A program made the position numbers and the translations under genes. Source: Callorhinchus milii (Eukaryota). Taken from it: a DNA stretch of 64,000 nt. How positions within the stretch are numbered: the first letter of the stretch is position 1; every line of letters begins with the position of its first letter. Where the stretch lies: contig NW_024704743.1 of assembly GCF_018977255.1 (NCBI RefSeq), positions 7,194,001 to 7,258,000 of the forward strand, given 5' to 3'. Of this stretch, positions 3,856-64,000 are shown one piece after another. The notes under the pieces were generated by a model. It saw only the letters and a list, made by a program, of their open reading frames with translations, did not search any database and was not told the origin of the DNA.

Positions 3856-4807
3856 CAGAGCGCTTCACAGTAACAGATGCCGGGGCCAAGCCAGGGGGAG
3901 GAGGAGGAAGGTGACCAAAGGTGGTTGAAAAGAAAGGTCTTCAGCCGAGACCTGAAAATAGCAAGAGAGGGAGTGAGGCGAAGGGAGTGAGGAAGGGAAT
4001 TCCAGAGCCTCGGGGCATAGTGGCTGAAGGCATTGCCGCTGAGGGTGGAGAGGAGGACTCGGGGGACAAGGAGGAGGCCAGACCCGGAGGAACGAAGGCC
4101 ACGGGCGCTGTTTTGAGGAGAGAGGAGTTCAGAGAGGTAGGGGGATGCAGAGGAGTGCAGGGACTTGAATACAAGGGTGAGGATCTTGAAGTCGATCCTC
4201 TCTGGCACAGGCAGCCTGTCCAGTCTGACAAGGACTGGGGTAATCGGGGAGCGGAGTTTTGTGCAGGTGAGAATGTGGGCGGCAGAGGTTTGAATAATCT
4301 GGATTTTATGGATGGTAGTGGATGGGAGACCAGCGAGGAGGACATTGAATACTCCAGCCGAGAGGTGACAAAGGCATGGACTAGGGTTTCAACAGCTTTC
4401 AGAGAGAGGTATTGGCGGAGATGGGCGATGTGTCGGAGGTGGAAGAAAATGGTGCTGGTGAGGGACCAGATGTGGGGGAGGAAGGATAATTGGGGATCGA
4501 ACCAGATGCCTAGGTTGCGTACAGGTTCGGAGAGTTTTAGGGGGAGGTTGGGTAGGTGCAGGAGGTGAGAGCCACGAGATTTTAGACGTTGACGAGAGCC
4601 AAAAAGTATGGCTTCCGTCTTGTCAACGTTCAGCTGAAGGAAAGTTGCGCTCATCCAGCCCCTGAGGTCTGACAGGCAGGCTGACAGAACATCAGGGGAC
4701 TGGGAGTCGCAAAGAGAGGTGGAAAAATAGAGTTGGGTGTCGTCCGCATACATGTGGAAATGTATCCCATGTCTGCGGATGATATCCCCAAGAGGGAGCA
4801 TGTACAC
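3855..4807 (-). mobile_element. L2 LINE, 5'-truncated: RT C-terminal half and 3'UTR, frameshifted
   Basis: YMLPLGDIIRRHGIHFHMYADDTQLY...LNVDKTE...VRNLGIWFD...HAFVTSRLEYS, then frameshift to RIDFKILTLVFKSLH...APRLWNSLP...FRSRLKTFLF. Confidence 0.95.
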
Positions 4808-4974
4808 TCTGAAATGTTACGTTAACAGAGTAAATCGAAACTCATGTGGAATTTGACCTCACACATTGTCCATTATTTATGAATGAGTCAAGCTACAAAA
4901 CCATAGAAGACATTATAGCAGAGCTTTACCTCATCTTGTCCCAATATCCATATGCATACACTTTACAATAGGGG

Positions 4975-8032: not shown

Positions 8033-10664
8033 CTGTTAAAGATTAAAAAATTAAACAAGAAATGCAACTGTAAAAGAGCAACTTCCTCTTGCTTCTTGCC
8101 CATGGGAATGCACCATTTGTACTTGCTGACAGAAACAGCACATTTAAAACTCCATCAACTAACATGAAGGAACGTGTTGAATTTGGTATTTCTAAACACT
8201 GTTATTTCCTGGCCAGTAGTATTTCACAGCCTTGAAATTCTAAACGATATCATACTTATGTGAAAATACGCGTTGCTCTGTGTTGAGTTAACTGATCTCA
8301 ATCAGGGCAGCAATAAGAGTATATAAAACTGTCAACCATTGGAATCAAATGTCAACCAACGACATTATTATCTAGTTCCGTTTTGGTCAGACACATAACC
8401 AGTTTGTGGACCCTGAATAATATAGCACTGAGAGAAAACAGTTTGCACTTTTATAGCACCTTCCAAGTCAAAATTTCTCAAAGCGGTTTATAGAAATTAT
8501 TGTCAAGTGTAATATCTTTACGGTAAGTGACTTCGAAGGCGAACTAACAAAAAGTTGAACTGTTTTAAAATCTCAACACTGATCCCAGAGGAGCTGAGCT
8601 AATGTACCAGAATCAAAACCACTGATTTATTTGGGTAATATCACTTTATTTCCAAGTGTGCATATGGTACAGTTTATGTGAATGTCACAGGGCAATTGTT
8701 GTACTGCATCTAATGTACATGATCTTTGCATTCATTTCAGAAAGCTGTGCACCATTTGACTGTCTACATCTCCATCTATATATAAATTCAGACGGTGAAT
8801 TCTTCAGATCTAAATTAACTTGTTAAACTAGTTTCCGATTCCCATTACATCGCTGCTGCTTGGGGAATGGAAAGTCCATCAGAACTGCTGTGTTACTTGG
8901 TGACACAACAACCAGTCTGAGCTTGTGCTCCCGTGGTCAAAGTCACTGATTACTCATTAACTATTTCCTTGTCTGCTCAAGGTTAACTCAACACGTGCCA
9001 GGATAAGTAGACTCAGCTCAGGGTGGAGTTAGTTCTGAGATATTTTAACATGAAAAGGTGCATTAAATAAGTAGTGAGTGAGTTTGCGGGATGTTTGCAG
9101 GATACTATTGTGGGCAAATTGGCTGCCATGTTTACCTACAAATACACAGTCACTACATTTGTCGTTTAGAGACATTGTTCCGACCTGAAAAGAGCTATAT
9201 CAAATGCAAGGATTATTATTATTATTATAAAAATACTAAAAAGAAGTTATTTATTTTGCCTGAATGAATACACCTTCACGTTCCACTTCTACCTCCACCC
9301 CGTTCTTTAGAAAGCCAGAGGAGACATGATGGGCTGAACGGTCTCCTTAGTGCTTTAAAGTTGTATGATTCTAACATTGACAATAAAAATATCCTGACCC
9401 AGAATGAAGAGGAGATGAACTATGCTTCTACTGTTGGACAATTAAGAGTTAGACTGCCATCCCATGAGATGAAATGTTGAACTATGCCACAATATTGGGC
9501 CAAGACAATGTACTTAAATTGGTGGCTTTTACAACAAAATCAGATGAATACTAAATCCTGGCACGGAGCAAATATTCAGTGATGTGATAATTGTAACATG
9601 TGATCATTATTACCGATGATAACTATCATGTTACATATCACATTTTCCACCTCAAAATTAACAGTTTCAGGCTGGTGATCACCATTGGTTTATCTAACCT
9701 ACTCATTCAAATTCCCCAAATATTCCTTCGACACATAGGAACATAGATAAACAGAACAGGAGAATGGCGGAACAGGCTCAAAGGGCTGAATGTTGTACTC
9801 CTGTTCCTATGTCTGTACCTGCAGGGAAAGCAATCAACCTACCTGAGGTTGGAAAATATTGTTGGCTGGATCGATAAGATACTCACAGACACCTCTAGCA
9901 CTGATGTCTCTAGAAGCAGGGGAAAAAACCCAGTGTCTAAAATGGACAAGTTACTGGCTGTAGAGATAGCATCGCCAGCTCACGCTAATATGAAAGCACA
10001 AGAAAAGTCCTTCTGATCTGTCCCATACTCAGGAAGAGCATTGTCAATGCAGGAACACAATTTATTTTCCATCTCCCGCAATAGCAATCCTTTGGCCTAG
10101 CTAAGTGAGAACTGAGAGGTTAGTGCCAATTTATGGGCAATTTTAGGTTGTGGCCGAAAGCCCAGTGGGAATTATCCAAATTATTTTCCTTCTTCTTGTG
10201 TTAGTCGGGAGTCTCATGCATGCAGAAGGACTCTTACTATGCTTAAGAGTTTCCAGAAGCTGAGCTTGTTTGTCAGTTACAGACAGAAGCCCCCCATTAA
10301 CCTTGCACTCCACTCCACCAGTTGCCTACAAATTACAGATTAAAAAGATTTACTAGGGTAAATCCCGTGAAGTGCTTTGAGATGTTAAATGCGCTACATC
10401 AAACCAAAGATTATTATTATTATGAGTCAGTCCTTCAGGGAAAGGAGTGAGGAAAATTGGATATTTTTTAAAATATTGTTTTGCATATGTGTGTGTGCAT
10501 GTATTTAGTTACTGTTGTTTGCCATTAATTGTCTGAACTAGATGGACCATTCATATGGCTGGTGTAAAATTAACTGGCAATTGCACTCCAATACAACAGT
10601 CACTTCATTTCTTATTCTGAGAGGCACTTTGAGGCATTTCTTTTACGTAAAAGATACTAAATGT

Positions 10665-15540: not shown

Positions 15541-15569
15541 AGCACTGTGTCCAAGTTACTTGACAGTTA

Positions 15570-16055
15570 GTGTTTCAGATCCAATATAGAGGTTGGGATC
15601 AGGGAGGGTGGAGGGCAGGGGGTGAAAGGGGATGACCGAAGGCATGGACGAAGAGGAGCGTCTTGAGATGGGTCTTGAAGGAGGCAAGGGAGGGGGCGAG
15701 GTGAGGGACTGCGGGAAGGAGTACCAGAGGATGGGGGTAGAATGGCTGAAGACCCACCCGCCAATGGTGGGGCGGGCAAGGCGGGGGACAGAAGCAGGCC
15801 GGAGCGGACAGGTTGGTAGGGGGTTAGGAGGTCGCAGAGGTAGGGGGGAGCAAGGCCATGCAGGGCTTTGAAGGTGAGGACCAGGACCTTGAACTGTATC
15901 CTCTGCATGATGGGAAGCCAGTGGAGTTGGGGTAATAGGGTCACGGAGCCTGGTGCGGGATAGGATATGGGCTGCAGAGTTCTGAATGATCTGCAGTCTG
16001 TGGGGGAGGAGTTGGGGAGGCTGACAAACAGCAAGAGCCAGATACAGAGTAAAAC
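15570..16055 (-). mobile_element. L2 LINE 3' fragment
   Basis: LPQLHWLPIMQRIQFKVLVLTFKALHGLAPPYLCDLL translation plus 3'UTR. Confidence 0.9.
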
Positions 16056-16519
16056 TCCCACCTTACCCTCAGCCTCAAAAATGTGCTTTGACCCAAATCT
16101 CAGAAGAGCCCCTCCTCTACTGCATGAATGTGAGCTTTTAGTGCCTTTCCCACATCAGCCATCTTTGTGGCTCCTCTGAATCAGTCTGCCTATTTAGAGT
16201 CAAATAGTCTCCAATTATACATCGTTTGTGCCATGATATTTTTCCCCACTGGAAACTGGCCTGAGATTGACTAAGCTCTTTTCCATTGGGTTACTTTAAA
16301 ATAGCCAGAGAAAAGAAACTCATTCTGTTATCTCTTTATTATTCGGTCAAATGAGTGCCTGAAACGCACGAAAACTCTTCACCATGTTTGAGTCTCAAAA
16401 ACAAACTATTGTCTGGTTCCCATTTTCTATAGAGGTTTTTCACTTAGATTTTCTTTATGCCCTTTCAATTTCTCCCCCCTTGAAGAGATCAACTCAAGAC
16501 AATGTTTTCAATGGCAAGC

Positions 16520-18629: not shown

Positions 18630-19075
18630 CCCCAACAACAACAACAAGATTCCATTTATAGAGTGCCTTTCACGTCAGGAGGACGTCCCAAGGCGCTGTA
18701 CAGTTGGGTCAAGACCCGAGTAGGGGGGAAATGGTCAGGGGGAGGGAAGGGAGGGAGCGAGGAGGGGGTAGAGAGTCGACAGGGGAGCTGAAGGCATGGT
18801 CAAAGAGAAAGGTCTTGAGACCGGCCTTGAAGGAGGAAAGGGAGGAGGCGGCGAAGGCACTGGGGGATAGAGTTCCAGAGCCTAGGGGCTGAGAGGCTGA
18901 AGGCCCGGCCACCGATGGTAGGGCGGTTGGGGCGGGGGACGTGGAGCAGACCGGAGCCAGAGGAACGGAGGGTACGGGCAGGTAGGTAGGGGGATAGTAG
19001 GTCGGAGAGGTAGGAGGGAGCAAGGCCGTGAATGGCCTTGTAGGTGAGGATGAGGATCTTGAATTCGATCTCCTT
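18630..19075 (-). mobile_element. L2 LINE 3' fragment with intact tail
   Basis: caacaacaacaac tail; SSFKAGLKTFLFDHAF; rc encodes IEFKILILTYKAIHGLAPSYL. Confidence 0.9.
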
Positions 19076-19339
19076 TCCTAGTACCTCTGTTCCAGTTGTT
19101 AATTGGATTCAATTGTTCCAGTTATCTCGGCCAACAATAAAATTGGTCATTCACGCCATTGCTGTTTGTGGGATGTTGCTGTGCACAAATTAGCAGCTGT
19201 GTTTGTCCTTAAAACACACCGTCACTCCACTTTACAGTATATTCTGTGAAGAGTTTTCGAACAATCTCCTGACCTGAAAGGCGCTATACCAAATACATGG
19301 ATTATTATTAATTACCCTCTGTATAAAGTGATACTTCAT

Positions 19340-33179: not shown

Positions 33180-33940
33180 AACTAGTCGATTAGCGGATCG
33201 TTTTCTGGGAGTGATAATCCCTTCAAAATACTTTTTTTAAAAAATAATAATTTGGTCACTCGATCCACGAATGACTGTGGGACATTGCTGTGCGCAATTG
33301 GCTGCTGGGTTTAGCCCACAAAATGCAGTCAATTCACTTTACAGTATATCCTGTGAAGCGCTTTGAGACGCCTCGAAGACTTGATAAGGAGCTACATCAA
33401 ATGCAAGGATTTTTTTATTATTTATCCCCGTGTGTACCTAGACAGGAGCATCTGAGCCAAACCCAATCCTCTCTTTATCTGGCATACACACAAACTACTT
33501 TCTACCATGGATCACTAGATAGTGATTAAGCACTGAAGTTCTGACTTTTTTTTGTCCCTAGCCTTGGGACATAGAGACCAATTGCCGTGCCCACCACCCC
33601 CACCCTGACCAATCTGCTTGAGATCAGCAAACTCAGTGCTGATCAGAGATCAAACTTGGACCTTCCTGAGCTGCGTGGCTTGATACCACACCATGTTTCC
33701 TTACTCCACACGTCTCCGTTTATCTAGCAGTAAGTAGGAACCCGGGTGTTAGTCGATTGGTGAATTGCTTTTCCTGGGGTGATAATCTCTCCAAAAAAAA
33801 AAATGTTGTCACTCAATCCACCACTGTTTGTGGGACAATTGACTGCCGCGTTTTGCCCACAACTCAGTCAATTCACTTTGCAATATATTCTGTGAACGTG
33901 ATAAGGAGCTATATCAAGTGCAAGGATTATTCTTATTAGC
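33180..33940. mobile_element. SINE cluster: type 2 (+), family B (-, 33490-33695), type 2 (+)
   Basis: Body and tail motifs as in other copies. Confidence 0.75.
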
Positions 33941-34039
33941 ACATGGTGCATTTACTTATTGAACCCTAACAGTTTTTTTTTACAAATTCAAAATCTATAG
34001 GAAAGATATGAAACTGACATTTTCCAATGAATGATATAT

Positions 34040-34440
34040 CAACAACAATTTGTACTTACATAGCGCCTTTCACATAGGGTAGCGGCTCAGAGCACTTAAC
34101 ATGACACAACCTGATGCTGAGCTTGGGGAAGGTGACTGTAAGTATGATTGAAGAGGAAGGTCTTCAGATGTGATCTGAGAATGGGGAAAGAGGAGGCAAG
34201 GTGAAGGGATCGAGGGAGAGAGCTCCAAAGTTTGGGGGCGTAGTAGCTGAAAGCACAGTGGTGGGTAATACTCAAAAATGAGGTAAGCAGGGTATGTTCC
34301 ACTGGGGAGAGAGTGGGAGAATGGTATTCCATTCCAGTCACAGGAATTTCCGTGTATAGAACTCTCAGTTTGGTATGGATACTCTTAAGCATCATGATGG
34401 GTTTCCACATGTGTCTGATATCCAGCTGACCAAAAAAAAA
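34040..34440. mobile_element. L2 3' end (-, 34040-34265) abutting family C fragment (+, 34265-34440)
   Basis: AFSYYAPKLWSSLP...LKTFLFNH translation; ggatactcttaagc...cagctgaccaaaaaaaaa. Confidence 0.8.
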
Positions 34441-36424
34441 TGAAAGTGATCAAAATATTGAAAAAAAATACAGAAAAACAACTTCAAAACTAAGAATAAA
34501 TTTAAGAATTGCTCAAAATTTGCATGTTCTAAAATGCTAAGACCTACGTCTAGACCCAAGTGAAATTTTTCCCCCAGGGTGGGGATGTTTGTACTGTTCC
34601 AGTGTTGGATCATGTTGAATAGTCAACAGGTGTTGTCCCCTGAGAGACAACCTCTCACAAACCCAATTTGGTCTGGGTGGATAAGCATAGTGGAGACAGG
34701 CCCCCTCCCAGACTGGAGGCCAGGACTTTGACTGACATGTTATACCTTGTTAAGGAAGGATATAGGACCGTAGAATCCACAGGGCAAAGAAAACTTGAAG
34801 AATTTTTCGAAAATCAACAGGTGCCGACAGTTAGACTGCAAATATCAGTGTACATCTTTCCAAATGGCCTGGTGTTCTGGACTGAGGATTGCAGTAAATT
34901 GAAGTGAATATTTCTGAAGGCTCAAGTGCCTTAAAGGCTCTGCCCAGACTTTTGATAGCGTCTGAGTGCTGGCGGGATAGCATGTGTAGCTTCCCTTGTC
35001 ACTCTCATCTGCTGAGCTAGCCGTGTCCATCTGCATAGCACCGTAAGCCACTCAGGCTCTCTGCTGCAGGGAAACCTTTTTGTGTCACAATCGAGCACAA
35101 ATTCCACACGCTAAAGGAAACACAACCTCAATCTCAGGTTTCAATGGAGGCTCTTGAAGATATGAAGGGCAAGGAATCAGATTTAGTGTTGCTCTCTTTA
35201 AGTTGTTTTTGTCGTTGTGATCACAAGTGGTTTATACTCAGTGCTGTTTGTGCGATGCTATATGGGGGGGGGAGGTAGGGGAAGAAGACAAAGGCAAGTT
35301 ATTCAGTTACACACTAGAGTTCCAAAGAGGGAGTTGGCTCTTCAGAGTCTGTTTTCAACAAAGAATTGGAAGTAAAGTGAAAACTTGCAGATAAAAGGAA
35401 CTGGTTAACTGATCTGTTTTGTACACCTGCCAATTGTTGACTTCAATGGGTGAATTGTGTATTTAATTGTATTTAATTTAAATCAAATCGTTGACTTGAA
35501 AATTTGTGAGTCTTTGTGTGGTTCGGGACACCGAGACTATCAAGCTCACGCAGACAGGGGAAAATTAATTTTAAACTTGTATATAGCAATGTGCATGATA
35601 CAGAGAGGTATAGTAACCAATCTGAAGAACAGAATACTGTTTCCTTGTTTTTGCTTCTCACTCACCAACAACCATCTTTCACGTACCTTTTCACCACATA
35701 ACTACATCTGTTTATCTTTTCTCGCATAACTATACCAGACCGATCAAGGACATTAGATAAAGGAAAGACGGCATCTAACAAGGTAACAAAAGTTACATTA
35801 GTACGTTCATCAACGAAATTCCACTTAAGTACAGTACAGGTGTTCAGAAATTTTCTATTATAGGCAAAATACAAAATATTACATCATAATGATTAACTTA
35901 ACAAAATTTCATTAATCATAGACGATGTTGAACTGATTCCAAATAGATGTTTCATTGTGGCAAAACTTAGTAATAGAGTATATGCATCATTTCAATCAGG
36001 GTGCCCTGTTCTACCAGCTTTGACTACAAGGTTGAGAAGGTTTCTCACTTCTCACGCCACATTTGTTGTCCATGTTCACCCAAAACTGCACTCACAACAT
36101 TCCGAATCCCATCCTCATCACAATCAGCAAAACAGCTTAAGCAAACACAATTAAAATTAAGTCTTAAAATACCAATCTAAACTGAAATTCTTTACGAGAA
36201 CACTACACAATGTATTTGTCCTACAATAAAACGTACCTTTTTGACCATGCATACGATCATCTCCTTGCTCTTTCTTGCTCTTTCTTGCTTTCTTGCTCTT
36301 GCTCTTTCCCCGGTGCTTGGCGTCCACACCCACAACTGTTTGGCACTCCAAGATGTCATTTGATGTGAAGGGCGGTATATAAATGTAAGTTGTTTTTATT
36401 GCATCATGTTGTTGTTGGACACTC

Positions 36425-36840
36425 ATAGTCTAGGCCGACACTCTAATGCGTTGCATTGTTCGAGGTGCCGTCCTCTTCAGGCAGATGCTAAAGATCCCAT
36501 GAAACTATTCAAAAAGAGAAGGGAGATTCTTCTGGTGTCCCGTCCAAGAAACCGAATAAAACTGGTCGTTCACTTCTGGCTATTTGTGGGTCGTTGCTGT
36601 GCACAAATTAGCTGCAGCTTTTGCCTACAAATACACAGTCACTTCACAGTAATAATAATAAATAATAATAATCCTTGATTTGGATATAGCTCCTTATCAT
36701 GTCGTTGAGATGTCTTAAAGCACTTCATAGAATATATTGTAAAGTGAATTGACTGTGTATTTTGTGGGTGAAATGCGACAGGCAATTGCACACTGCAGTG
36801 TCCCACAAACAGTCGTGGATTAAGTGATCACATTTTTTTT
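36425..36840. mobile_element. Tail-to-tail SINE pair
   Basis: Deu (+) 36425-36655 and type 2 (-) 36655-36840 meeting at (aat)n. Confidence 0.75.
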
Positions 36841-36904
36841 CACATTAAAGTCCTGTGAAATTTTAAGATGTCTTGACAGCATGATCAATATAAAGTAGTC
36901 ACGA

Positions 36905-37185
36905 ATAGATCAAATAGGGAAGTTAGAAGAAAATTCTTCACACAGAGAGTAGTGGGAATGTGGAACATACTATCCACAAAGAGTTGCTGAGGCAAATGGC
37001 ATAGATGTATTCAAGGGAAAGCTAGATAGGTACATGAGGGAGAAAGGCATAGAAGGTTATGCTTGAAGGCTTAGTTGAGGAAGGGCAGGAGGAGGCTCAT
37101 GTGGAGCATAAACACCGACATAGACCAGTTGAGCCGAATGGCCTGTTTCTGTGCTGTACATTCTAATGCATTCTAATGTAATGTT
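36905..37185 (+). mobile_element. CR1 LINE 3' end
   Basis: ttcttcacacagagagtagtgggaatgtggaac (FFTQRVVGMWN), ttcaagggaaagctagat, tail attctaatg repeats. Confidence 0.9.
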
Positions 37186-37530
37186 TGATAAGGGCCATAT
37201 TAGAAATGCAAGGATTATTTATTATTCTTCATGTGTGAGTCCAGACAGTGAGTCTTATCAGTGTATTAAATAAAAAATAATCTTTGCATCTGGCGTCTGT
37301 AAAGTCAAAACATTTCAAAGGGCTTCATAAGTAACTGGAGTCAAATGTAATGACTGTGTATCCATAGGCAAACATGACAGTCGATCTGTGAACGGTAATG
37401 ATCCACAAACAGCCATGACGTGAATTATCAAGTTATCTGAAGGATTGTCAGGCGCAAATCCTTGACTGTCCAATGTCTTGGGACATCCCCCAACGTGAAA
37501 GGCACTATACAGATGTAAGTTGTTGTTATA

Positions 37531-37678
37531 AACAAAACACAAAATACTGCAGATGCTGGAAATCTGAAAACAGAAACAGAAGGCGCTGGGAACACTCAAC
37601 GGGTCAGGCAGCATCTATGGAGAAAGAAAAGTGAGTCAACGTTTCGGGTCCACAACCCTTCATCAGAACTGTTCTGAT
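37531..37678 (-). mobile_element. Penelope-like element terminal (pseudo-LTR) remnant
   Basis: aaaatactgcagatgctggaaatctgaaa...caggcagcatct...aacgtttcgggtc...cccttcatcagaact, a common chondrichthyan repeat; ends in short inverted repeat atcagaac-t-gttctgat. Confidence 0.7.
37634..37670 (-). ncRNA. Minimal type-I hammerhead ribozyme motif
   Basis: Minus RNA AGUU CUGAUGA A GGGU ugugg ACCC GAAAC GUU GACU: catalytic boxes, 4-bp helix II, 4-bp helix I, palindromic AACGUU in place of helix III. Confidence 0.65.
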
Positions 37679-37819
37679 TTTGTAATTTGTTGTTGTTGTT
37701 TTGTTGTTGACCAGTACACTGGGAGAAGCTCCAATTCTTTCTTCAAATGCTGTTGTAGGAGCTACAACAAAACAGAACTTTGGTTGAATATCTCATCCAA
37801 AGGCTTGACTAACCTCTTT

Positions 37820-37985
37820 TGAAGGAGGGGATTCTAGGTCTCCTTGGAGCTGACCTGCTCTGGGTGACATGCTCGGTAACAGAATGTCAGAAGCACATTC
37901 CGTTAGTTAGTTTTGTTAGTTAAGTTCTTGAGCCAGACAGGTCTGCAGTGCTCCAGAGCAGAACTTGGAGAGGCAGATTTCATAG
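37820..37985 (+). mobile_element. Module D of unassigned family C/D
   Basis: aggtctccttggagctga...caggtctgcag is the reverse complement of 25050-25170. Confidence 0.55.
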
Positions 37986-38844
37986 CCTAGGCTGACATTC
38001 TAGTATAGTACTGGGGAAGTGCTGAGTTGTCAGAGATGCAAATATCTACTTCCCTCTTCCCTAGTGGGCATTCCACATCCTAACAACTCACTATGTGAAA
38101 AGAATTTTTCTTTTCTACCTTGTTAACTCTCTTAAATTAACATCCACTAGTCACTGACTCACTGATCAGTGAAATAATTTTTTCCTATCGACTCTATCAA
38201 AACCCCTCGTGAAAGTAGACTAAGTACCCATAGGTCAAACCACTTACCCCTAGTATTATCCTCTGCACTCTCTATTGTCGTGTATTGTCCTGTTATCCTT
38301 CCTAAAGTGAGTGAAGGGGAGAGAGACATTTAGCATTGTTTCACATGTGTGCCACATCTGGCAATATTTCTACGCATAATAATAATAATAATAATCCTTG
38401 TATTTGATATTGCGCATTATCACGATGTCAGGATTTCTCAAAGCGCTTTGCAGGATTTTACTGTGAAGTGTAGGGACTGTGTCAATTTATGAGAATTCTT
38501 TCATTATAAAATATACATATATTATTATAGTAGCACTTCAGTATAACACTCTAAGATATAAAATCACACATGAGAGGTCAAATCATGCAATGATGGGCCG
38601 TGAACCTTAATGCAGCTGTTAGCACAGGTGAACAGAATATTTAGCTCTGTCCTTGCATGCCAATCAAATGGTGTTTACCTTAAAATATCAGTCAAAAAAT
38701 CCTAAAAATATTAATAAAATTTTGGGAAATGGACAGCAATGAATAGCGATAACAGGTGCTTCAATGAGCTCAGTGAGCTGATTATTGTTTAAATAGTGCA
38801 CTGAGCAGCTGGGAGAGACGCATTGTGTCAAAAATTAACTTATG

Positions 38845-39275
38845 AACAATCCTTGCATTTGATAAGAGTATTTCACATTAGGAAAATATCTCAAAGTACT
38901 TCACAGGATTCTATTGTGAAGTGTAGTGACTTTATGGTATCAGTGAATACAGCAACTAATTTGAGCACAAGCAACTCCCCACAAACAGCAATGTGAATAA
39001 CCTTTTTTTTATCTGGAAAATGGCAAGGACATTGGAAGAAACTCCCTCTCTTTTTGACTAGTGCCATGGGATCTTTAATGTTGACCTGAACAGGCAGTCT
39101 TGTCCTAGCTTAATATCTCATCTGAAGGACAGCACTTCTGACAATGAGGCCTACCCCAGCACTACATTGGAGTGTTAGCCCAGACTATGTGAGTTCAAAG
39201 ACCCAAAATGGCATCTCAACCCACTGTCTTCTGACTCAGAGATGAAAGTGCTACCAACTGAGCCCAGTTGATACC
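38845..39275 (-). mobile_element. DeuSINE, full length
   Basis: Tail, Deu domain and tRNA-like head all present. Confidence 0.85.
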
Positions 39276-39389
39276 TTGGCTAAGCTACAGCAACTCATGT
39301 ACTCTCTGAATCACAAGGGATGTTTTCCAGAAATGCTTAAATGGTCCTCGTGAATCGGGTGAAGTGAACTCTGAAAAGCCCCTCAACAG

Positions 39390-39700
39390 AAAGATTCCTT
39401 CAGCACATCAAGCCCATTCCTCCAATTTATTAAATCATAACTGATCTTTTAATGTAACTTCCTTCAACTTTTCCAATATCCCCTAATATGCCTTTACTTC
39501 TCAAGTTTCAACCCACCTCCCTTTTACAATTGATTCTACCTTAATGGGCATCCGAGGCAATGCATTTGAAACATTCACAATACTCAGTGTGAAGAAATGT
39601 GTTCTGTTCTTACTTCTAACCATCTTTCCTGTGGTTGCTTGTCTTTGTCCTCATTCTCCCTAACGTTCCCCTTATTTGCCAGGTCTTGTCGCCCTTCTAT
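39390..39700 (-). mobile_element. Old CR1 LINE 3' fragment
   Basis: catcaagcccattcctcc...cattcacaatactcagtgtgaagaaat. Confidence 0.6.
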
Positions 39701-39868
39701 TGACATATGAATGCTTTATTCTTGTCTATTTTGTGGGCATGCAGGACACAGACAATGATTAGCACAAAATCAGTCTTGATAAAAGTCTCAGAGGACACTG
39801 ACTGCACAGATTGACTCAAAGTGCAGTTGCACCTTCAAATAGACCCGATTATCCATAAACCTAATTAT

Positions 39869-39965
39869 TCACCAGGTGGCAGGCAAAACACCCCTTAAGT
39901 GATCAAGGCATCAAATCTTTGCTTGAGGATCCCCCAAATTATCCTTTATGACCACTAGGGTGCGA
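39869..39965 (+). promoter_or_regulatory. Two co-oriented CTCF-like motifs
   Basis: TCACCAGGTGGCAG 39869-39882 and CCACTAGGGTGCGA 39952-39965 versus consensus CCASYAGRKGGCRS. Confidence 0.35.
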
Positions 39966-40254
39966 CATGTATGGTATCATGTTCCATCTTTTCAGTGGTC
40001 TGCAAGTTGGCCAGAGATATCATAACCTAGGATCCGATAGCTTGGTCCAAGTTCCCAAGAATCCAACCTTGCCCCCTACAAGGCTCTGAAATACATTTTT
40101 GGACTGAAGATGCCCTCATAATGAAACCCCTTGTTTACATGTGACATTGAGTCTTCTGTTGGAACTGGAATGGCTATGTGTGTAGTCAATGACTCCTTGC
40201 ACTCTGAGGAAAGACATCATTTGCAAAAGTCCTTGCTGCTATCACTTATGAAAT

Positions 40255-40480
40255 TGTTAGGCGATTGGTGGATTGCTTTCCATGGCTAATAATCCATCCC
40301 CCCAAAAAAATATTGGTCACTCAATCCACGTCTGCGTGTGGGACACTGCTGTCCACAACTGCCTGTCGCATTTCGCCCACAAAGTTTACAGTCAATTCAC
40401 TTTACAGTGTGAAGCACTGTGAGATGTCTCAACCACGTGATAAAGCACTATATCAAATGCAAGGATTATTATGATTATTA
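40255..40480 (+). mobile_element. SINE type 2 3' half
   Basis: gattggtggattgcttt...caaatgcaaggattatt. Confidence 0.8.
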
Positions 40481-40665
40481 TGAAATGCAACAGAATGTCT
40501 TAGAATGGAGCAAGCCTTGGTGATTTACGTACTGGGACATTGACCAGTATCTTGGACTCGATCACACTCTGTGGCCAGCCCTACCATTCAGCTTCACTTT
40601 CTCTAAGACCTTTATCAAGACTGAAGAGCCCCAGCTTGTCAATGTGTTCCTCATAGCTTATTTAA

Positions 40666-40823
<158 letters not shown>

Positions 40824-41599
40824 AGTGAGCCAGGTTAGGCCTGCTCATCCCCATTAACACAATCAGACCAAAACTTTGGGAAATAGGGTTGTCCCCACAG
40901 ACAAACCCCAATCGCCCTCAAACTCTTCTCGGCTCCAAATTGGCAAAGGACAATGTGGACCTCAACCATGTCTTCGTGACCATCCAAGCAAGTCAGGTGA
41001 CCGGATGGCCTCTCCGCAGGGCAAGCCCGGTCTGAGTCTAGTGACCAGACTTGGTGCTTGAAACCACAAGCTTCTGACCCAGATGTGAGATTGGGCTAAG
41101 ATGACACCTATGCAGTGGGTTTATAGCTCATTTGTTGTTAGTAGTGAATAAAAGGAATCTTTACACTGAGCAGATACTGAGTCTTAGTTGAATTATGCTG
41201 AGTTACCAGTCTATTCTCAGGTTAAGGAGGAAAATAGTCCAGAGGTGATATTCATTGACCTGAAAGGTGTGGGTGTGTGGATCAGGATAGTATCAGGCTC
41301 AGCTGTACTGAATACCCGACCACCACTCACTTGTTAGCCCTGCAACTGGGTGGAGGGCCAGAGTGTACCGGGTTCTCATGGGGCGGACCGGACCTTAGCA
41401 GATGCCATTACCTTCAGGAAACGAGAGAGAAAGCACACCATGACCTTAAATTGACTGTTCCCTTAATAGTTACAGATGAACTGCACAGAGTTGAAGTGGA
41501 TCTCTTATGTACACACGCTTTTGAAGAAAGGTAAAGGTTGGAACCTATTTTAAAAGCCTTTTGTGTACTGAGTTGAGGAGGTTGACAATGTGTGAGCAA

Positions 41600-45707: not shown

Positions 45708-46038
45708 TGGAGACCTGTAGCTCAGTGGTTAGAGCACTCGCTTTGCAAGTGAGAGACCTGAGTTCAATTCCAGGCAGAGGGTGAAACCTTGGGCAAGTTT
45801 CCTTACTCCACACAGAGCCTAATAATAATCCCTCCAAAAACTAAAAACAATAATTAAATTGGTCATTTTCAATCTACGACTGTTTGTGGGACATTGCTGT
45901 GCGCAATTGGCTGCCGCGTTCGCCCACAAATATACAGTCAATTCACTTTACAGTGTGTTCTGTGAAGCGCTTTGGGACGTCCTCCCGACGTGAAAAGCGC
46001 TATATCAAATGCAAGGATTATTATTATTATTATTATTA
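45708..46038 (+). mobile_element. tRNA-headed SINE type 2 inserted in old CR1
   Basis: Head gtagctcagtggttagagcactcgctttgcaagtgagag...gagttcaattcc (tRNA-Ala-like, A/B boxes); CR1 motifs flank both sides. Confidence 0.9.
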
Positions 46039-47109
46039 AAACATAATTCCACTGATCAGGTACTGAGTAACAAAATGGCGCGAATCGAAGATTTTAATTA
46101 GAAGACAAAAGCGGGCGAATTGGAATTTATTTTGCACAGAGGATTGTTAAATGCCTTTACCAATGGTACCAAAGTTTATTCAAGATGATTTAATACAGCA
46201 TTTATACAGGTTGAACAGCACAGAAACAGGCCATTTGGCCCAACTAGTCAAAAACAACAAATTGCATCCCAGGGCACTTAGTTCATGCTGGAAAAAAGCT
46301 GTATCAGCCAGGAATTCAACCTGGCTTACAAGATAGTAATCTTATAAGACAAAACAGCATTTAATAGGGAATTGAGTAAATACTTGAGGAAAAATCATAT
46401 TAAAGCAGGGGAGTGGGATTAGAGCAGATAGTTCCAATGGAGGAACTCACACAAGCACAGACACAATAGGCCAAATGGATTATTGGTGTACAATTTCTAC
46501 GACTCTATGATTCTATGAAACAGGTTGCGTATTTTGTGATGGGAGTTTTATGTGATGAAATACTTTTTCCTTTATGTACTATGCATATAATATGACAGGT
46601 GATACAGTTGAGCATTGGTCACTCTGAATGCTATTGCTCGCAAGCTCCAAAAGTAACTATTTGAAATAATAATAATTCGTGCATTTGATATAGCGCTTTT
46701 CACGTCTTCTATATGTCTCAAAATTGCTTTACAGAATAAAGTGAATTGACTGTATTCAAGATGGTTTCATACAGCATTTACATAGGATAAACAGCACAGA
46801 ACCAGACCATTTGGCCTAACTGGTCAACAACAAAAACAACAACTTTTGTCCCAGAGCGCTGGAAAAAGCCGTATCAGCCAGGAATATTAGGTTAAAAAGT
46901 AGGTATTCCTGGATTTCTATTTGTGGAAAAAACGCCCACAAATATAAATCCAGGAATACATAGTTTTTAGCCTAATATTTTGTTCTCATATTTGGGGAAA
47001 GGAAGGAATTGAGAAAGTTCTCTAGGAAGACTTTTAAGACTTTGTAAAATAATAATTGTTGTTGTCCATAAATTAGCTGCAGACACAGTGATGAGACTTC
47101 ACAGTAACA

Positions 47110-62559: not shown

Positions 62560-63230
62560 ATCTTTCACCTTTTTTTTCCCCATACTTGAGACATTATATG
62601 CAACCACCTTTCTAACTTTTCAATCGCTTACATCAATGATGGCGATGGAGGGGAACAGACACGGTTTATTCTCAGCATCTTCACTCAACTGCTTTTTTCC
62701 ACAATGTCTCACCTGCCCAGTCCCTTCTGTCTGCAGTCTATCCATCCACCTTCTTTCTCAGCTGTCCCCAATCCGTTCATGTCTATCAATCTTTTTCTAC
62801 AGTTTCTGACCCGCCCAGCCTCTTCTTTAACGCAATCTCCTACCACATCTCCAATTCTGGCTCACACTCATCCTATCGAGACTTGATTACGCTAACACTC
62901 TGATTGTCAGTCTTTCCAACTCTTCCTTCCACAAACTGCAGATTATTCAGAACTCTGCAGCTTGTGTCCTGTCCCACATCAGGCTCCGTGACCCTATCAA
63001 CCTCATCCTTGCCCAGCTCCACTGGTCCCCATCCCCCAGAGGATAGAGTTCAAAATCCTTATCCTCGTCTTCAAAGCTCCTCCTTACCTCTTGATCTGCT
63101 AACCCCATACCAGCCTGTCTGCTCCCTCTGCTCGGCGGTTTCTGGTCTGCTCCACATCCCCTTCCCTACCTGCCCCACCATTAGCTGTTAAGCCTTCAGC
63201 TTCTCTGCGCCCACCCTTTGAAACTCTATC
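62560..63230 (+). mobile_element. L2 LINE RT C-terminal fragment (decayed)
   Basis: tcgagacttgattacgctaac (SRLDYAN), cagctccactgg...aggatagagttcaaaatcctt (QLHW...RIEFKIL). Confidence 0.85.
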
Positions 63231-63234
63231 CCGC

Positions 63235-64000
63235 AATCAACAGCAACAACAACAAAATTACATTTATAGAGCGCCTTTCATGCCGGGAGGATGTCCCAAA
63301 GCTCTGAACAGTCAGGTGTCGAGGCCTGAGCATGGTGGAGGAGTGGTGCAGGGGTGAGGGAAGGCAAAGAGGTGGGAGGGCGACCAAAGGCACGATCGAA
63401 GAGAAGGATCTTGAGACCGGCCTTGAAAGAGGCAAGGGAGGAAGTGAGGTGAAGGGACTGTGGGATGGAGTTCCAGAGTGTGGGAGCAGAAAGGCTGAAA
63501 GCCCGGCCACCAATGGTAGGGCGGGTCGGGTGGGAGACATGGAGCAGACTGGAGCCCGCTGAATGGAGGGAGCGGGCAGGTTGGTAGGGCGTCAGCAGGT
63601 CAGACAGGTAAGAGGGGGCAAGGCCATGGATGGCCTTGAAAGTGAGGACAAGGATCTTGAACTCGATCCTCTGGGGGATGGGGAGCCAGTGGAGTCAGGC
63701 GAGGGTGGGAGTGATGGGGTCGCGGAGCCTGGTGTGTGAGAGTACACGAGCTGCAGAGTTTTGGATGATCTGCAGCTTGTGAAGGGAAGAGGTGGGAAGG
63801 CCGATGAGAAGGGAGTTTCCGTAATCGAACCTTGATGGGACAAATGTCTGGGTGAGGGTTTCGGCAGCCTGTGGGGTGAGGCAGTGTCGGAGTCTGGCAA
63901 GCCGTTTGCAGTGACGAAGTGGAGGCGGTGTAAAAGGTAGGACCTGAACCAGTCAAGGACAGAGCCTTGAAGGTTGAGGTGGGAGGAGAGGCGGTGGAGG
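63235..64000 (-). mobile_element. L2 LINE 3' portion with tail, runs off window end
   Basis: Tail caacaacaac; rc encodes SRFDYGNS...LHWLPIPQRIEFKILVLTFKAIHGLAP. Confidence 0.9.

What the first reader, a model, noticed from the sequence alone, without database searches (positions are those of the whole stretch)
37634..37678. Minimal hammerhead ribozyme motif in a Penelope-like remnant
Seen: minus strand reads AGUU-CUGAUGA-A-GGGU(ugugg)ACCC-GAAAC-GUU^GACU. Both catalytic boxes are intact, helix II is 4 bp, helix I is AGUU/GACU, and helix III is reduced to the palindrome AACGUU. A short inverted repeat (atcagaac-t-gttctgat) caps the element. Established: Penelope-like pseudo-LTRs carry minimal type-I hammerheads thought to cleave as dimers. 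Inference: a solitary copy on the same strand as the candidate exons could cleave a host pre-mRNA, but may be inactive without a partner.
Basis: partly seen in the sequence, partly recalled or inferred. Interest (0 to 1): 0.7.

Follow-up and report, generated by a model that had tools for sequence, protein, structure and literature searches.

The report
Solitary Penelope-type hammerhead relic, self-blocked
The small self-cutting RNA motif is really there, but it is one stub of a very abundant jumping-gene repeat of a kind described in 2014, and this copy has no partner and folds back on itself, so it is most likely inert.

Summary
The motif is real. Minus strand 37670-37634 matches the published minimal hammerhead (min-HHR) consensus of Penelope-like elements (PLEs); 0 of 1500 shuffled windows matched the descriptor. 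It heads a 153-bp insert (37680-37528) in the (AAC)n end of an older repeat, flanked by a 14-bp duplication (13/14). Contigs of two organisms show a very abundant family with two 3' ends about 40 nt apart and inverted partners joined at the motif's 5' edge, both PLE hallmarks; no RT-endonuclease gene could be linked to it. Activity here is unlikely: no second motif in 64 kb, and the inverted 'cap' pairs with helix I and the CUGAU box, cutting the modelled hammerhead-compatible share from 0.07 to 4e-4 or less. Among family copies the catalytic G12 decays like a non-core CpG (11-15% versus 10-19% in DNA-type runs). No host gene or minus-strand exon was confirmed. Verdict: a correct catch of an ordinary PLE stub; host pre-mRNA cleavage is unsupported.

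The parts
37634..37670 (-). Minimal type-I hammerhead motif (helix I 4 bp, CUGAUGA, extra A, helix II 4-5 bp with G10.1-C11.1, GAAA, C-G-U-U, predicted cut 37638/37637)
   Evidence: Sequence; descriptor null 0 of 1500; fits the consensus in supplementary Fig. S3 of PMC4209133
37662..37678 (-). Fold-back: 37678-37671 is an inverted copy of 37669-37662; forms a 7-bp hairpin that takes up the 5' strand of helix I and CUGAU
   Evidence: Hairpin pair probabilities 0.68-1.0 for the outer six pairs in all four contexts that include it, -4.6 kcal/mol alone
37528..37680 (-). Whole insert, 153 bp: short copy of a very abundant repeat family (family homology about 37533-37671); inferred 3'-terminal piece (pLTR plus tail) of a Penelope-like element
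   Evidence: Only copy in the window; summed contig depth up to 756,824 against 9.2 on the unique flank in run X1 (not a copy number)
37533..37574 (-). Optional 3' extension of about 40 nt: family copies end either near 37574 or near 37530-37534; matches the PLE 'tail'
   Evidence: Loose ends at 37574 (X1, X3, X8) and at 37530-37534 (X1, X8, X12); 30-40 bp tail described
37681..37694 (-). Target-site duplication, upstream copy (14 bp)
   Evidence: 13 of 14 identical to 37527-37514; such matches occur in 3 of 957,000 position pairs at 160-174 bp spacing in the window, this one included
37514..37527 (-). Target-site duplication, downstream copy (14 bp); the (AAC)n end of the host repeat
   Evidence: Ten paralogous host-repeat ends printed carry this end once
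37404..37527 (+). 3' end of an older SINE/LINE-type repeat into whose microsatellite tail the element inserted (the LINE-2/SINE label is recalled, not from a call)
   Evidence: About ten paralogues in the window at 74-88% identity

Best explanation
A 153-bp retro-inserted stub of the 3' terminal repeat (pseudo-LTR plus tail) of a Penelope-like element, one of a very large family. Inferred origin: PLE endonuclease nicked an AT-rich (AAC)n repeat end, reverse transcription began at the distal of two internal start sites (giving the tail), stopped at the 5' edge of the hammerhead, an 8-nt fold-back was added, and repair left a 14-bp duplication. The hammerhead is a passenger. In the parent element such motifs are thought to cleave as dimers or with help from the element's protein. 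In this copy the motif is intact in sequence but most likely silent: no partner in cis, only a 4-bp ACGU interface in trans, no tertiary contacts, and the fold-back hairpin forms first during transcription and holds helix I and the CUGAU box. Shown here: anatomy, duplication, family abundance, two 3' ends, inversion joints, absence of a partner in the window. Modelled: the blocking hairpin. Inferred: PLE origin, insertion steps, inactivity.
For: Consensus match including the extra nucleotide between 9 and 10.1, G10.1-C11.1 and palindromic 15.2/16.2. TSD. Family depth, 3' ends 40 nt apart, and opposite-strand joints 37565>37670 (X1, X3, X8), 37569>37669 and 37626>37668 (X8), that is inverted partners next to the 5' end, as described for PLE insertions and for the two RT start sites of Anolis Poseidon. 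The same core pattern in unrelated metagenome loci forms an unselected helix I of >=3 bp in 88 of 121 matches (12 of 29 distinct helix types against a shuffle mean of 3.2, 1 of 5000 shuffles as high) and lies 86-163 nt behind a GIY-YIG-type ORF in 5 loci. Inactivity: one motif in 64 kb even with two box mismatches allowed; hammerhead-compatible share 0.07 (motif alone), 3.7e-4 (with arm), 1e-6 to 1e-7 (wider contexts); ACGU duplex -1.7 kcal/mol; a single Schistosoma min-HHR did not cleave in vitro; G12 differs in 14.7, 14.1 and 10.6% of depth in X1, X3, X8, against 10.3, 9.8 and 18.6% at a non-core CpG.
Against: No RT or GIY-YIG remnant in the window (tblastn best E 0.5) and none of the 120 metagenome loci is homologous to the element beyond the motif, so the link of this family to an autonomous PLE was not shown. 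This copy has 0 private changes in the 37-nt motif against 5 in the other 101 nt, although this is not significant (Fisher p=0.32) and the 5' half is thinly sampled (depth falls from 337,041 to 35,250 across loop II in X1). The second core CpG (37641/37640) stays under the 10% listing threshold in all 4 runs, which could be some constraint. A single-motif Anolis PLE RNA did cleave when the PLE protein was added. Folding is a nearest-neighbour model without the tertiary core. Without the inverted arm the compatible share is also low (2e-4 to 0.011), so the arm is not the only competitor.
Confidence: 0.86

Rival explanations
1. Origin variant: the family is not a heap of random 5' truncations but a non-autonomous mini-element of about 140 nt with a preferred start at the 5' edge of helix I, mobilised in trans by PLE proteins. 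This changes the origin, not the verdict that this copy is inert.
For: Starts cluster at 37668-37671: this copy, the inversion joints in three runs, and 217 loose ends at 37669 in X8 with no shared sequence (agreement 0.36). The start is not the cleavage site. The shared upstream sequence is pyrimidine-rich and runs into CAG at 37671-37669, like a splice acceptor; the Drosophila virilis Penelope intron ends at the 5' end of helix I.
Against: Other contigs continue past 37671 into a shared upstream sequence (119 in X3, 314 in X8, 47 in X12; agreement about 0.5), so longer copies exist. Anything upstream of 37671 is invisible because this copy stops there, which by itself piles ends at that place. 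Only 15 of 93 joints were shown.
Confidence: 0.3
2. Conditional cleavage: the copy lies in a minus-strand host transcript and is cut after GUU when a PLE protein binds the retained 3' region or a second family copy pairs in trans through ACGU, destabilising or truncating that RNA.
For: Both boxes, both helices and the triplet equal the family majority (no listed difference at 37634-37644 or 37647-37670). Protein-assisted cleavage was reported for Anolis Poseidon. Family sequence is plentiful in a run guessed to be RNA (X12: 3,380 contigs laid), so partners may exist.
Against: Blocking hairpin; weak trans interface; low activity of min-HHR dimers and trimers in vitro; no RNA-seq ends at the Anolis cut site; no host gene confirmed.
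Confidence: 0.07
3. Domesticated intronic ribozyme, like the conserved amniote intronic type-I hammerheads, kept by selection at this locus.
For: Intact motif; the 5' junction with arm and CUGAUGA box is bridged in 2 of 2 other DNA-type runs of the same organism (X1 record 37645-38050, X3 record 37648-38050). Precedent in RECK, CTCL and DTNB introns.
Against: Those ribozymes are canonical motifs with tertiary contacts; this one is minimal, still carries a near-perfect TSD and differs from the family majority at only about 5% of well-covered sites, so it is a fairly young insertion; it is self-blocked; no host gene confirmed.
Confidence: 0.02
4. Chance resemblance to a hammerhead.
For: No Rfam hammerhead hit; folding z-score of the 37-mer only -0.46.
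Against: 0 of 1500 shuffles; all four features that PMC4209133 found outside its descriptor are present or consistent; the motif is the head of a large family.
Confidence: 0.01

Closest known systems
Minimal hammerheads (min-HHR) in the pseudo-LTRs of metazoan Penelope-like elements (Cervera and De la Pena 2014, PMC4209133)
   Same: Type-I topology, CUGANGA-H box, G10.1-C11.1, GAAA-C-G-U-H without helix III, short helix I; mostly found as dispersed single copies tied to truncated PLEs (about 4,000 in coelacanth and 9,000 in Xenopus). The C-G-U-U form occurs in Tetraodon, Ciona, Nasonia and others in Fig. S3.
   Different: No cartilaginous fish in the part of the alignment read, and 0 occurrences of shark, skate, Callorhinchus or Leucoraja in the supplement files searched (file 1 not searchable). 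Helix II is at the short end. This copy has an 8-nt fold-back that overlaps the core.
Insertion units of endonuclease-positive PLEs (Penelope/Poseidon, Neptune, Nematis): 5' truncation, adjacent inverted 5'-truncated copy, 30-40 bp tail on one end, variable TSD (bioRxiv 10.1101/2021.04.23.441226; PMC11167929)
   Same: TSD, AT-rich target, two 3' ends about 40 nt apart, inverted partners at the 5' end in other family copies.
   Different: Here the inverted piece is only 8 nt and copies the motif's own 5' end rather than the element's 3' end. No ORF is present, so the clade cannot be assigned.
Non-LTR retrozymes of animals (bioRxiv 10.64898/2026.07.22.740005)
   Same: Non-coding, hammerhead-bearing, PLE-related; reported in one chondrichthyan genome; solo monomers are common.
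   Different: Defined as tandem arrays with a hammerhead in at least two consecutive units; this is a single TSD-flanked copy with PLE tail.
Conserved intronic type-I hammerheads of amniotes (RECK, CTCL, DTNB; passages of PMC6155905)
   Same: Type-I hammerhead in non-coding genomic DNA, probably retroelement-derived.
   Different: Those are canonical, have tertiary contacts and are conserved at one locus; this one is minimal, high-copy, and has no shown host gene or orthologue.

Membership tests
Metazoan PLE min-HHR | CUGANGA and GAAA-N-N-U-H boxes around helix II, closed by a short helix I | tested here: met
Metazoan PLE min-HHR | Extra nucleotide between 9 and 10.1; G10.1-C11.1 pair; palindromic 15.2/16.2 | tested here: met
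   A37659; G37658-C37646; C37641/G37640, against the features listed
Metazoan PLE min-HHR | Second copy close enough in cis to form the active dimer | tested here: not met
   One motif in 64 kb, with up to two box mismatches allowed; solitary copies are the norm in the source paper, so this bears on activity, not on descent
Metazoan PLE min-HHR | Self-cleavage after NUH | not testable with these tools
   Only folding models; laid runs are contigs and cannot show RNA ends
Penelope-like element insertion | Target-site duplication of variable length at an AT-rich site | tested here: met
   14 bp, 13/14, in an (AAC)n end
Penelope-like element insertion | Optional 30-40 bp tail at the 3' end | tested here: met
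   Family ends near 37574 and near 37530-37534; read from a cut table of loose ends (24 of 1,764 rows shown)
Penelope-like element insertion | Inverted 5'-truncated partner next to the 5' end | tested here: met
   Opposite-strand joints at 37668-37670 in X1, X3, X8; 8-nt inversion in this copy
Penelope-like element insertion | Terminal repeat traceable to an RT plus GIY-YIG ORF | tested here: inconclusive
   None in the window; no genome held; shown only for unrelated families with the same core pattern
Canonical type-I hammerhead (Rfam families) | Covariance-model hit; intramolecular helix III; loop-loop contacts | tested here: not met
   No hammerhead hit; no helix III; helix I ends after 4 bp
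Non-LTR retrozyme | Tandem units, each with a hammerhead | tested here: not met
   Single copy
Domesticated intronic hammerhead | Sense position in a host intron and orthologous conservation | tested here: inconclusive
   No host exon confirmed; no orthologous contig of organism B could be identified

The most novel reading that the evidence does not exclude
The family is a hammerhead-headed, non-autonomous mini-retroelement of about 140 nt whose 5' start is set at the edge of helix I (possibly by a splice acceptor) and not by ribozyme cleavage. With tens of thousands of copies, intact sense copies in host transcripts could be cut in trans or with help from PLE protein, and 5' fold-backs such as the one here would be over-represented among surviving genic copies because they switch the ribozyme off. 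This copy would be an example of a self-silenced ribozyme.
Probability: 0.06. Interest if true: 0.6.

Novelty: new member of a known kind. Interest (0 to 1): 0.14.

Why it matters
As it stands, little: it extends a motif class described in 2014 to one more high-copy family, probably in a cartilaginous fish (taxon inferred from recalled repeat types, not shown by a call). Two details are useful. The inverted cap typical of PLE insertions here overlaps and blocks the catalytic box, a simple way for a ribozyme-bearing insertion to be harmless. And the family's size makes open questions testable by counting alone: whether PLE min-HHRs cut in vivo (depletion of intact, unblocked sense copies in introns) and why copies start at helix I and not at the cut site.

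Tried and rejected
Rfam at gathering score (whole window) and E<=10 (37300-38000): no hammerhead; three chance hits. No whole genome is held, so no genome-wide copy alignment, RepeatMasker-like class call or ORF linkage. An element-specific 22-nt pattern found 0 stretches in viral and in metagenome contigs; the general core pattern found 0 in viral contigs and 120 loci in metagenomes, none homologous outside the motif, so they served only as a control for the architecture. Host gene: Pfam on 116 of 121 minus-strand and 121 of 125 plus-strand unmasked ORFs of >=48 aa plus two exon candidates gave two DUF hits below cut-off (nine ORFs left out as LINE pieces or simple repeats; shorter ORFs not scanned); three exon candidates against PDB sequences gave one hit at E 0.097; splice-site scans with rough, recalled weights gave no convincing exon. 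The nearest minus-strand candidate (38248-38301) lies in what I recall as a CR1-like 3' fragment; Pfam gave no hit to confirm that. No RNA holder listed for 33500-41500. Runs X8 (organism B) and X12 (RNA by guess) do not cover the unique flank 37682-37762: no conclusion on orthology or expression. A 24-nt match at 46819-46843 to the upstream flank is an (AAC)n coincidence. Literature: 'hammerhead ribozyme'+'shark', 'Penelope'+'shark'+'genome'+'transposable elements' and two more searches listed no paper on this family; the library lacks most subscription papers and repeat databases, where the family may well be named. The relative activity of a GUU triplet was not sourced.

Full report
Observation. 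The minus strand from 37670 to 37634 reads helix I 5' strand (4 nt), CUGAUGA, one extra A, helix II (4 Watson-Crick pairs plus a possible U.G, opened by G10.1-C11.1), GAAA, C-G-U-U and helix I 3' strand, with the predicted cut between 37638 and 37637. A descriptor built on the published min-HHR consensus hits once in the window and in 0 of 1500 dinucleotide shuffles; without the palindrome and with shorter helices it hits 29 of 1500, and without helix I 167 of 1500. Rfam lists no hammerhead family, on the whole window or at E<=10 on 701 bases, which fits a motif with no helix III. The 37-mer folds no better than its shuffles (z -0.46).

Anatomy of the insert. The motif heads a 153-bp segment, 37680-37528, with no other copy in the window. 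It sits in the (AAC)n end of an older repeat that has about ten paralogues in the window. The 14 bases on either side match at 13 positions (37694-37681 and 37527-37514); matches that good occur in 3 of 957,000 position pairs at similar spacing, this one included, and ten paralogous repeat ends carry that end only once. This is a target-site duplication, though partly low in complexity. Bases 37678-37671 are an inverted copy of 37669-37662.

The family. Contigs of four public runs were laid on 37250-38050 at 80% likeness: two of organism A, one of organism B, one of A guessed to be RNA. Summed depth rises from 9.2 on the unique flank to 756,824 inside the element in X1, and to 2.3 million in X8. 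The tool warns that this is no copy number, but it shows a very large family in both organisms spanning about 37533-37671. Loose ends cluster at two 3' positions, near 37574 and at 37530-37534, about 40 nt apart. Opposite-strand joints (37565>37670 in X1, X3 and X8; 37569>37669 and 37626>37668 in X8) show copies in which an inverted piece of the element abuts a sense copy starting at helix I. Other contigs continue upstream into a shared pyrimidine-rich sequence. These tables are cut (15 of 93 joints and 24 of 1,764 loose ends shown). The 5' junction, with arm and first box, is bridged in both DNA-type runs of organism A (36 and 33 nt inside the element); the 3' junction is crossed by only 25 and 27 nt, under the tool's 31-nt rule. 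This copy differs from the family majority at five places (37573, 37583, 37599, 37601, 37627; 83-98% other letter), none in the motif (0 of 37 against 5 of 101, p=0.32).

Is it a Penelope-like element? Passages of bioRxiv 10.1101/2021.04.23.441226 describe PLE insertions as 5'-truncated, often with an adjacent inverted 5'-truncated copy, a 30-40 bp tail on one end, a variable TSD and a hammerhead in the pLTR. PMC11167929 (parts 1-2 of 4 read) ties the tail to two internal RT start sites and reports AT-rich targets. All of these are seen here. Helix I and the cleavage nucleotide were not in the pattern, yet 88 of 121 matches with flanks form a helix I of 3 bp or more and 115 of 121 have a non-G at position 17; 12 of 29 distinct helix types pair fully against a shuffle mean of 3.2. 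In five loci an ORF ends 86-163 nt before the motif on the same strand; of eight ORFs scanned, three pass the Pfam GIY-YIG cut-off and one more hits below it. None of those loci resembles our element beyond the motif and no PLE protein remnant lies in the window. So PLE origin is well supported by structure but the family was not linked to its own RT-endonuclease gene.

Does this copy cut? Probably not. PMC4209133 (parts 1-2 of 4, and supplement file 2 by search and part 2 of 3; file 1 not available) reports no cleavage by a single Schistosoma min-HHR and low cleavage by dimers and trimers. There is no second motif in the window, even with two mismatches in the boxes, so any cis partner is over 26 kb away; the ACGU self-duplex is worth -1.7 kcal/mol. 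The inverted arm forms a 7-bp hairpin with helix I and CUGAU. It is the predicted structure as soon as the first box is transcribed and persists in all four contexts that include it; the modelled share of molecules compatible with a hammerhead fold drops from 0.07 for the bare motif to 3.7e-4 with the arm and 1e-6 to 1e-7 in longer contexts. Without the arm, downstream sequence also competes (2e-4 and 0.011). On the other side, a single-motif Anolis PLE RNA cleaved when the element's protein was added, although no RNA-seq reads ended at the cut site and cleavage was not needed for insertion in vitro.

Is the core conserved among copies? Only two motif positions show another letter in 10% or more of the depth, both in one CpG: G12 (14.7, 14.1, 10.6, 6.8% in X1, X3, X8, X12) and C11.1 (13.7, 12.1, 12.4, 10.8%). 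A non-core CpG gives 10.3, 9.8, 18.6 and 6.7%. G12 is the general base, so its loss at a neutral-looking rate argues that most copies are not under selection for cleavage. The test is incomplete: the other core CpG stays below the listing threshold, only contigs at 80% likeness are laid, and depth falls tenfold across loop II.

Host transcript. The pre-mRNA idea needs a minus-strand gene. None was confirmed: 239 translated segments gave no Pfam hit above cut-off, splice-site scans gave two minus-strand candidates with good sites but near-zero coding scores (9843-9909, 38248-38301), and three candidates found nothing clear in PDB sequences. The window could still lie within a long intron or hold short exons, so this is absence of support, not disproof.

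Comparison and novelty. It works like, and by sequence belongs to, the min-HHRs of metazoan PLEs, known since 2014 as thousands of dispersed single copies in vertebrate genomes. It is not a canonical hammerhead and not a tandem retrozyme; a 2026 preprint (part 1 of 5 and passages read; supplements closed, and they may name the species and families) already reports hammerhead retrozymes in one chondrichthyan. PMC4350176 passages state that PLEs occur in all vertebrate lineages studied. My searches found no paper on this particular family. Earlier notes of this scan on the same genome reach the same reading for other copies, with 14- and 15-bp duplications; they are unchecked and not independent support. 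That the host is a cartilaginous fish, and the LINE-2, SINE and CR1 labels, rest on my recall of repeat types.

Verdict. Observation confirmed; interpretation partly supported. An ordinary stub of a high-copy PLE-type family carrying an intact but partnerless and self-blocked minimal hammerhead. New member of a known kind; interest 0.14.

Noticed in passing
window 37614 and 37563, minus strand: The element carries two strong splice-acceptor-like sites (polypyrimidine tract plus YAG; first exonic bases 37614 and 37563), ranking about 9th and 5th of 4,048 minus-strand AG sites under a rough recalled weight matrix. In a sense intron these could matter more than the ribozyme (cryptic exons).
   Followed up: partly
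window 37671-37668, family copies: Family copies often start at the 5' edge of helix I, not at the cut site; the shared upstream sequence is pyrimidine-rich and runs into CAG there, like a 3' splice site. The Drosophila virilis Penelope intron ends at the same place in its hammerhead.
   Followed up: partly
window 45715-45777 +: tRNA-like hit (Rfam RF00005, 40.2 bits) just upstream of a repeat body at about 45852-46038; probably a tRNA-derived SINE head.
   Followed up: no
window 3858-4816 -: Frameshifted non-LTR retrotransposon 3' fragment; RVT_1 hit E 2.4e-6, below cut-off. Related 3' fragments near 15556-16154, 18709-19108 and 63226-63694.
   Followed up: partly
window 40666-40822: Pure (TATC)n microsatellite of about 157 bp.
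   Followed up: no
whole window: About 34% of the window has a match elsewhere in the window, mostly two or three old SINE/LINE-tail families, several inserted into each other's simple-repeat tails.
   Followed up: no
window 9843-9909 -: Best-scoring exon-like segment in the window (67 nt, strong acceptor and donor); no Pfam or PDB match.
   Followed up: partly
L007, L038, L044, L048, L100: Metagenome loci with two hammerhead cores on opposite strands a short distance apart, the inverted-pair arrangement described for PLE insertions.
   Followed up: no
L065:873-1976 -, L035:873-1928 -, L047:309-1148 -, L009:3115-3720 -: GIY-YIG ORF ends followed 86-163 nt later by a min-HHR: PLE 3' ends in host DNA within metagenome assemblies.
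   Followed up: yes
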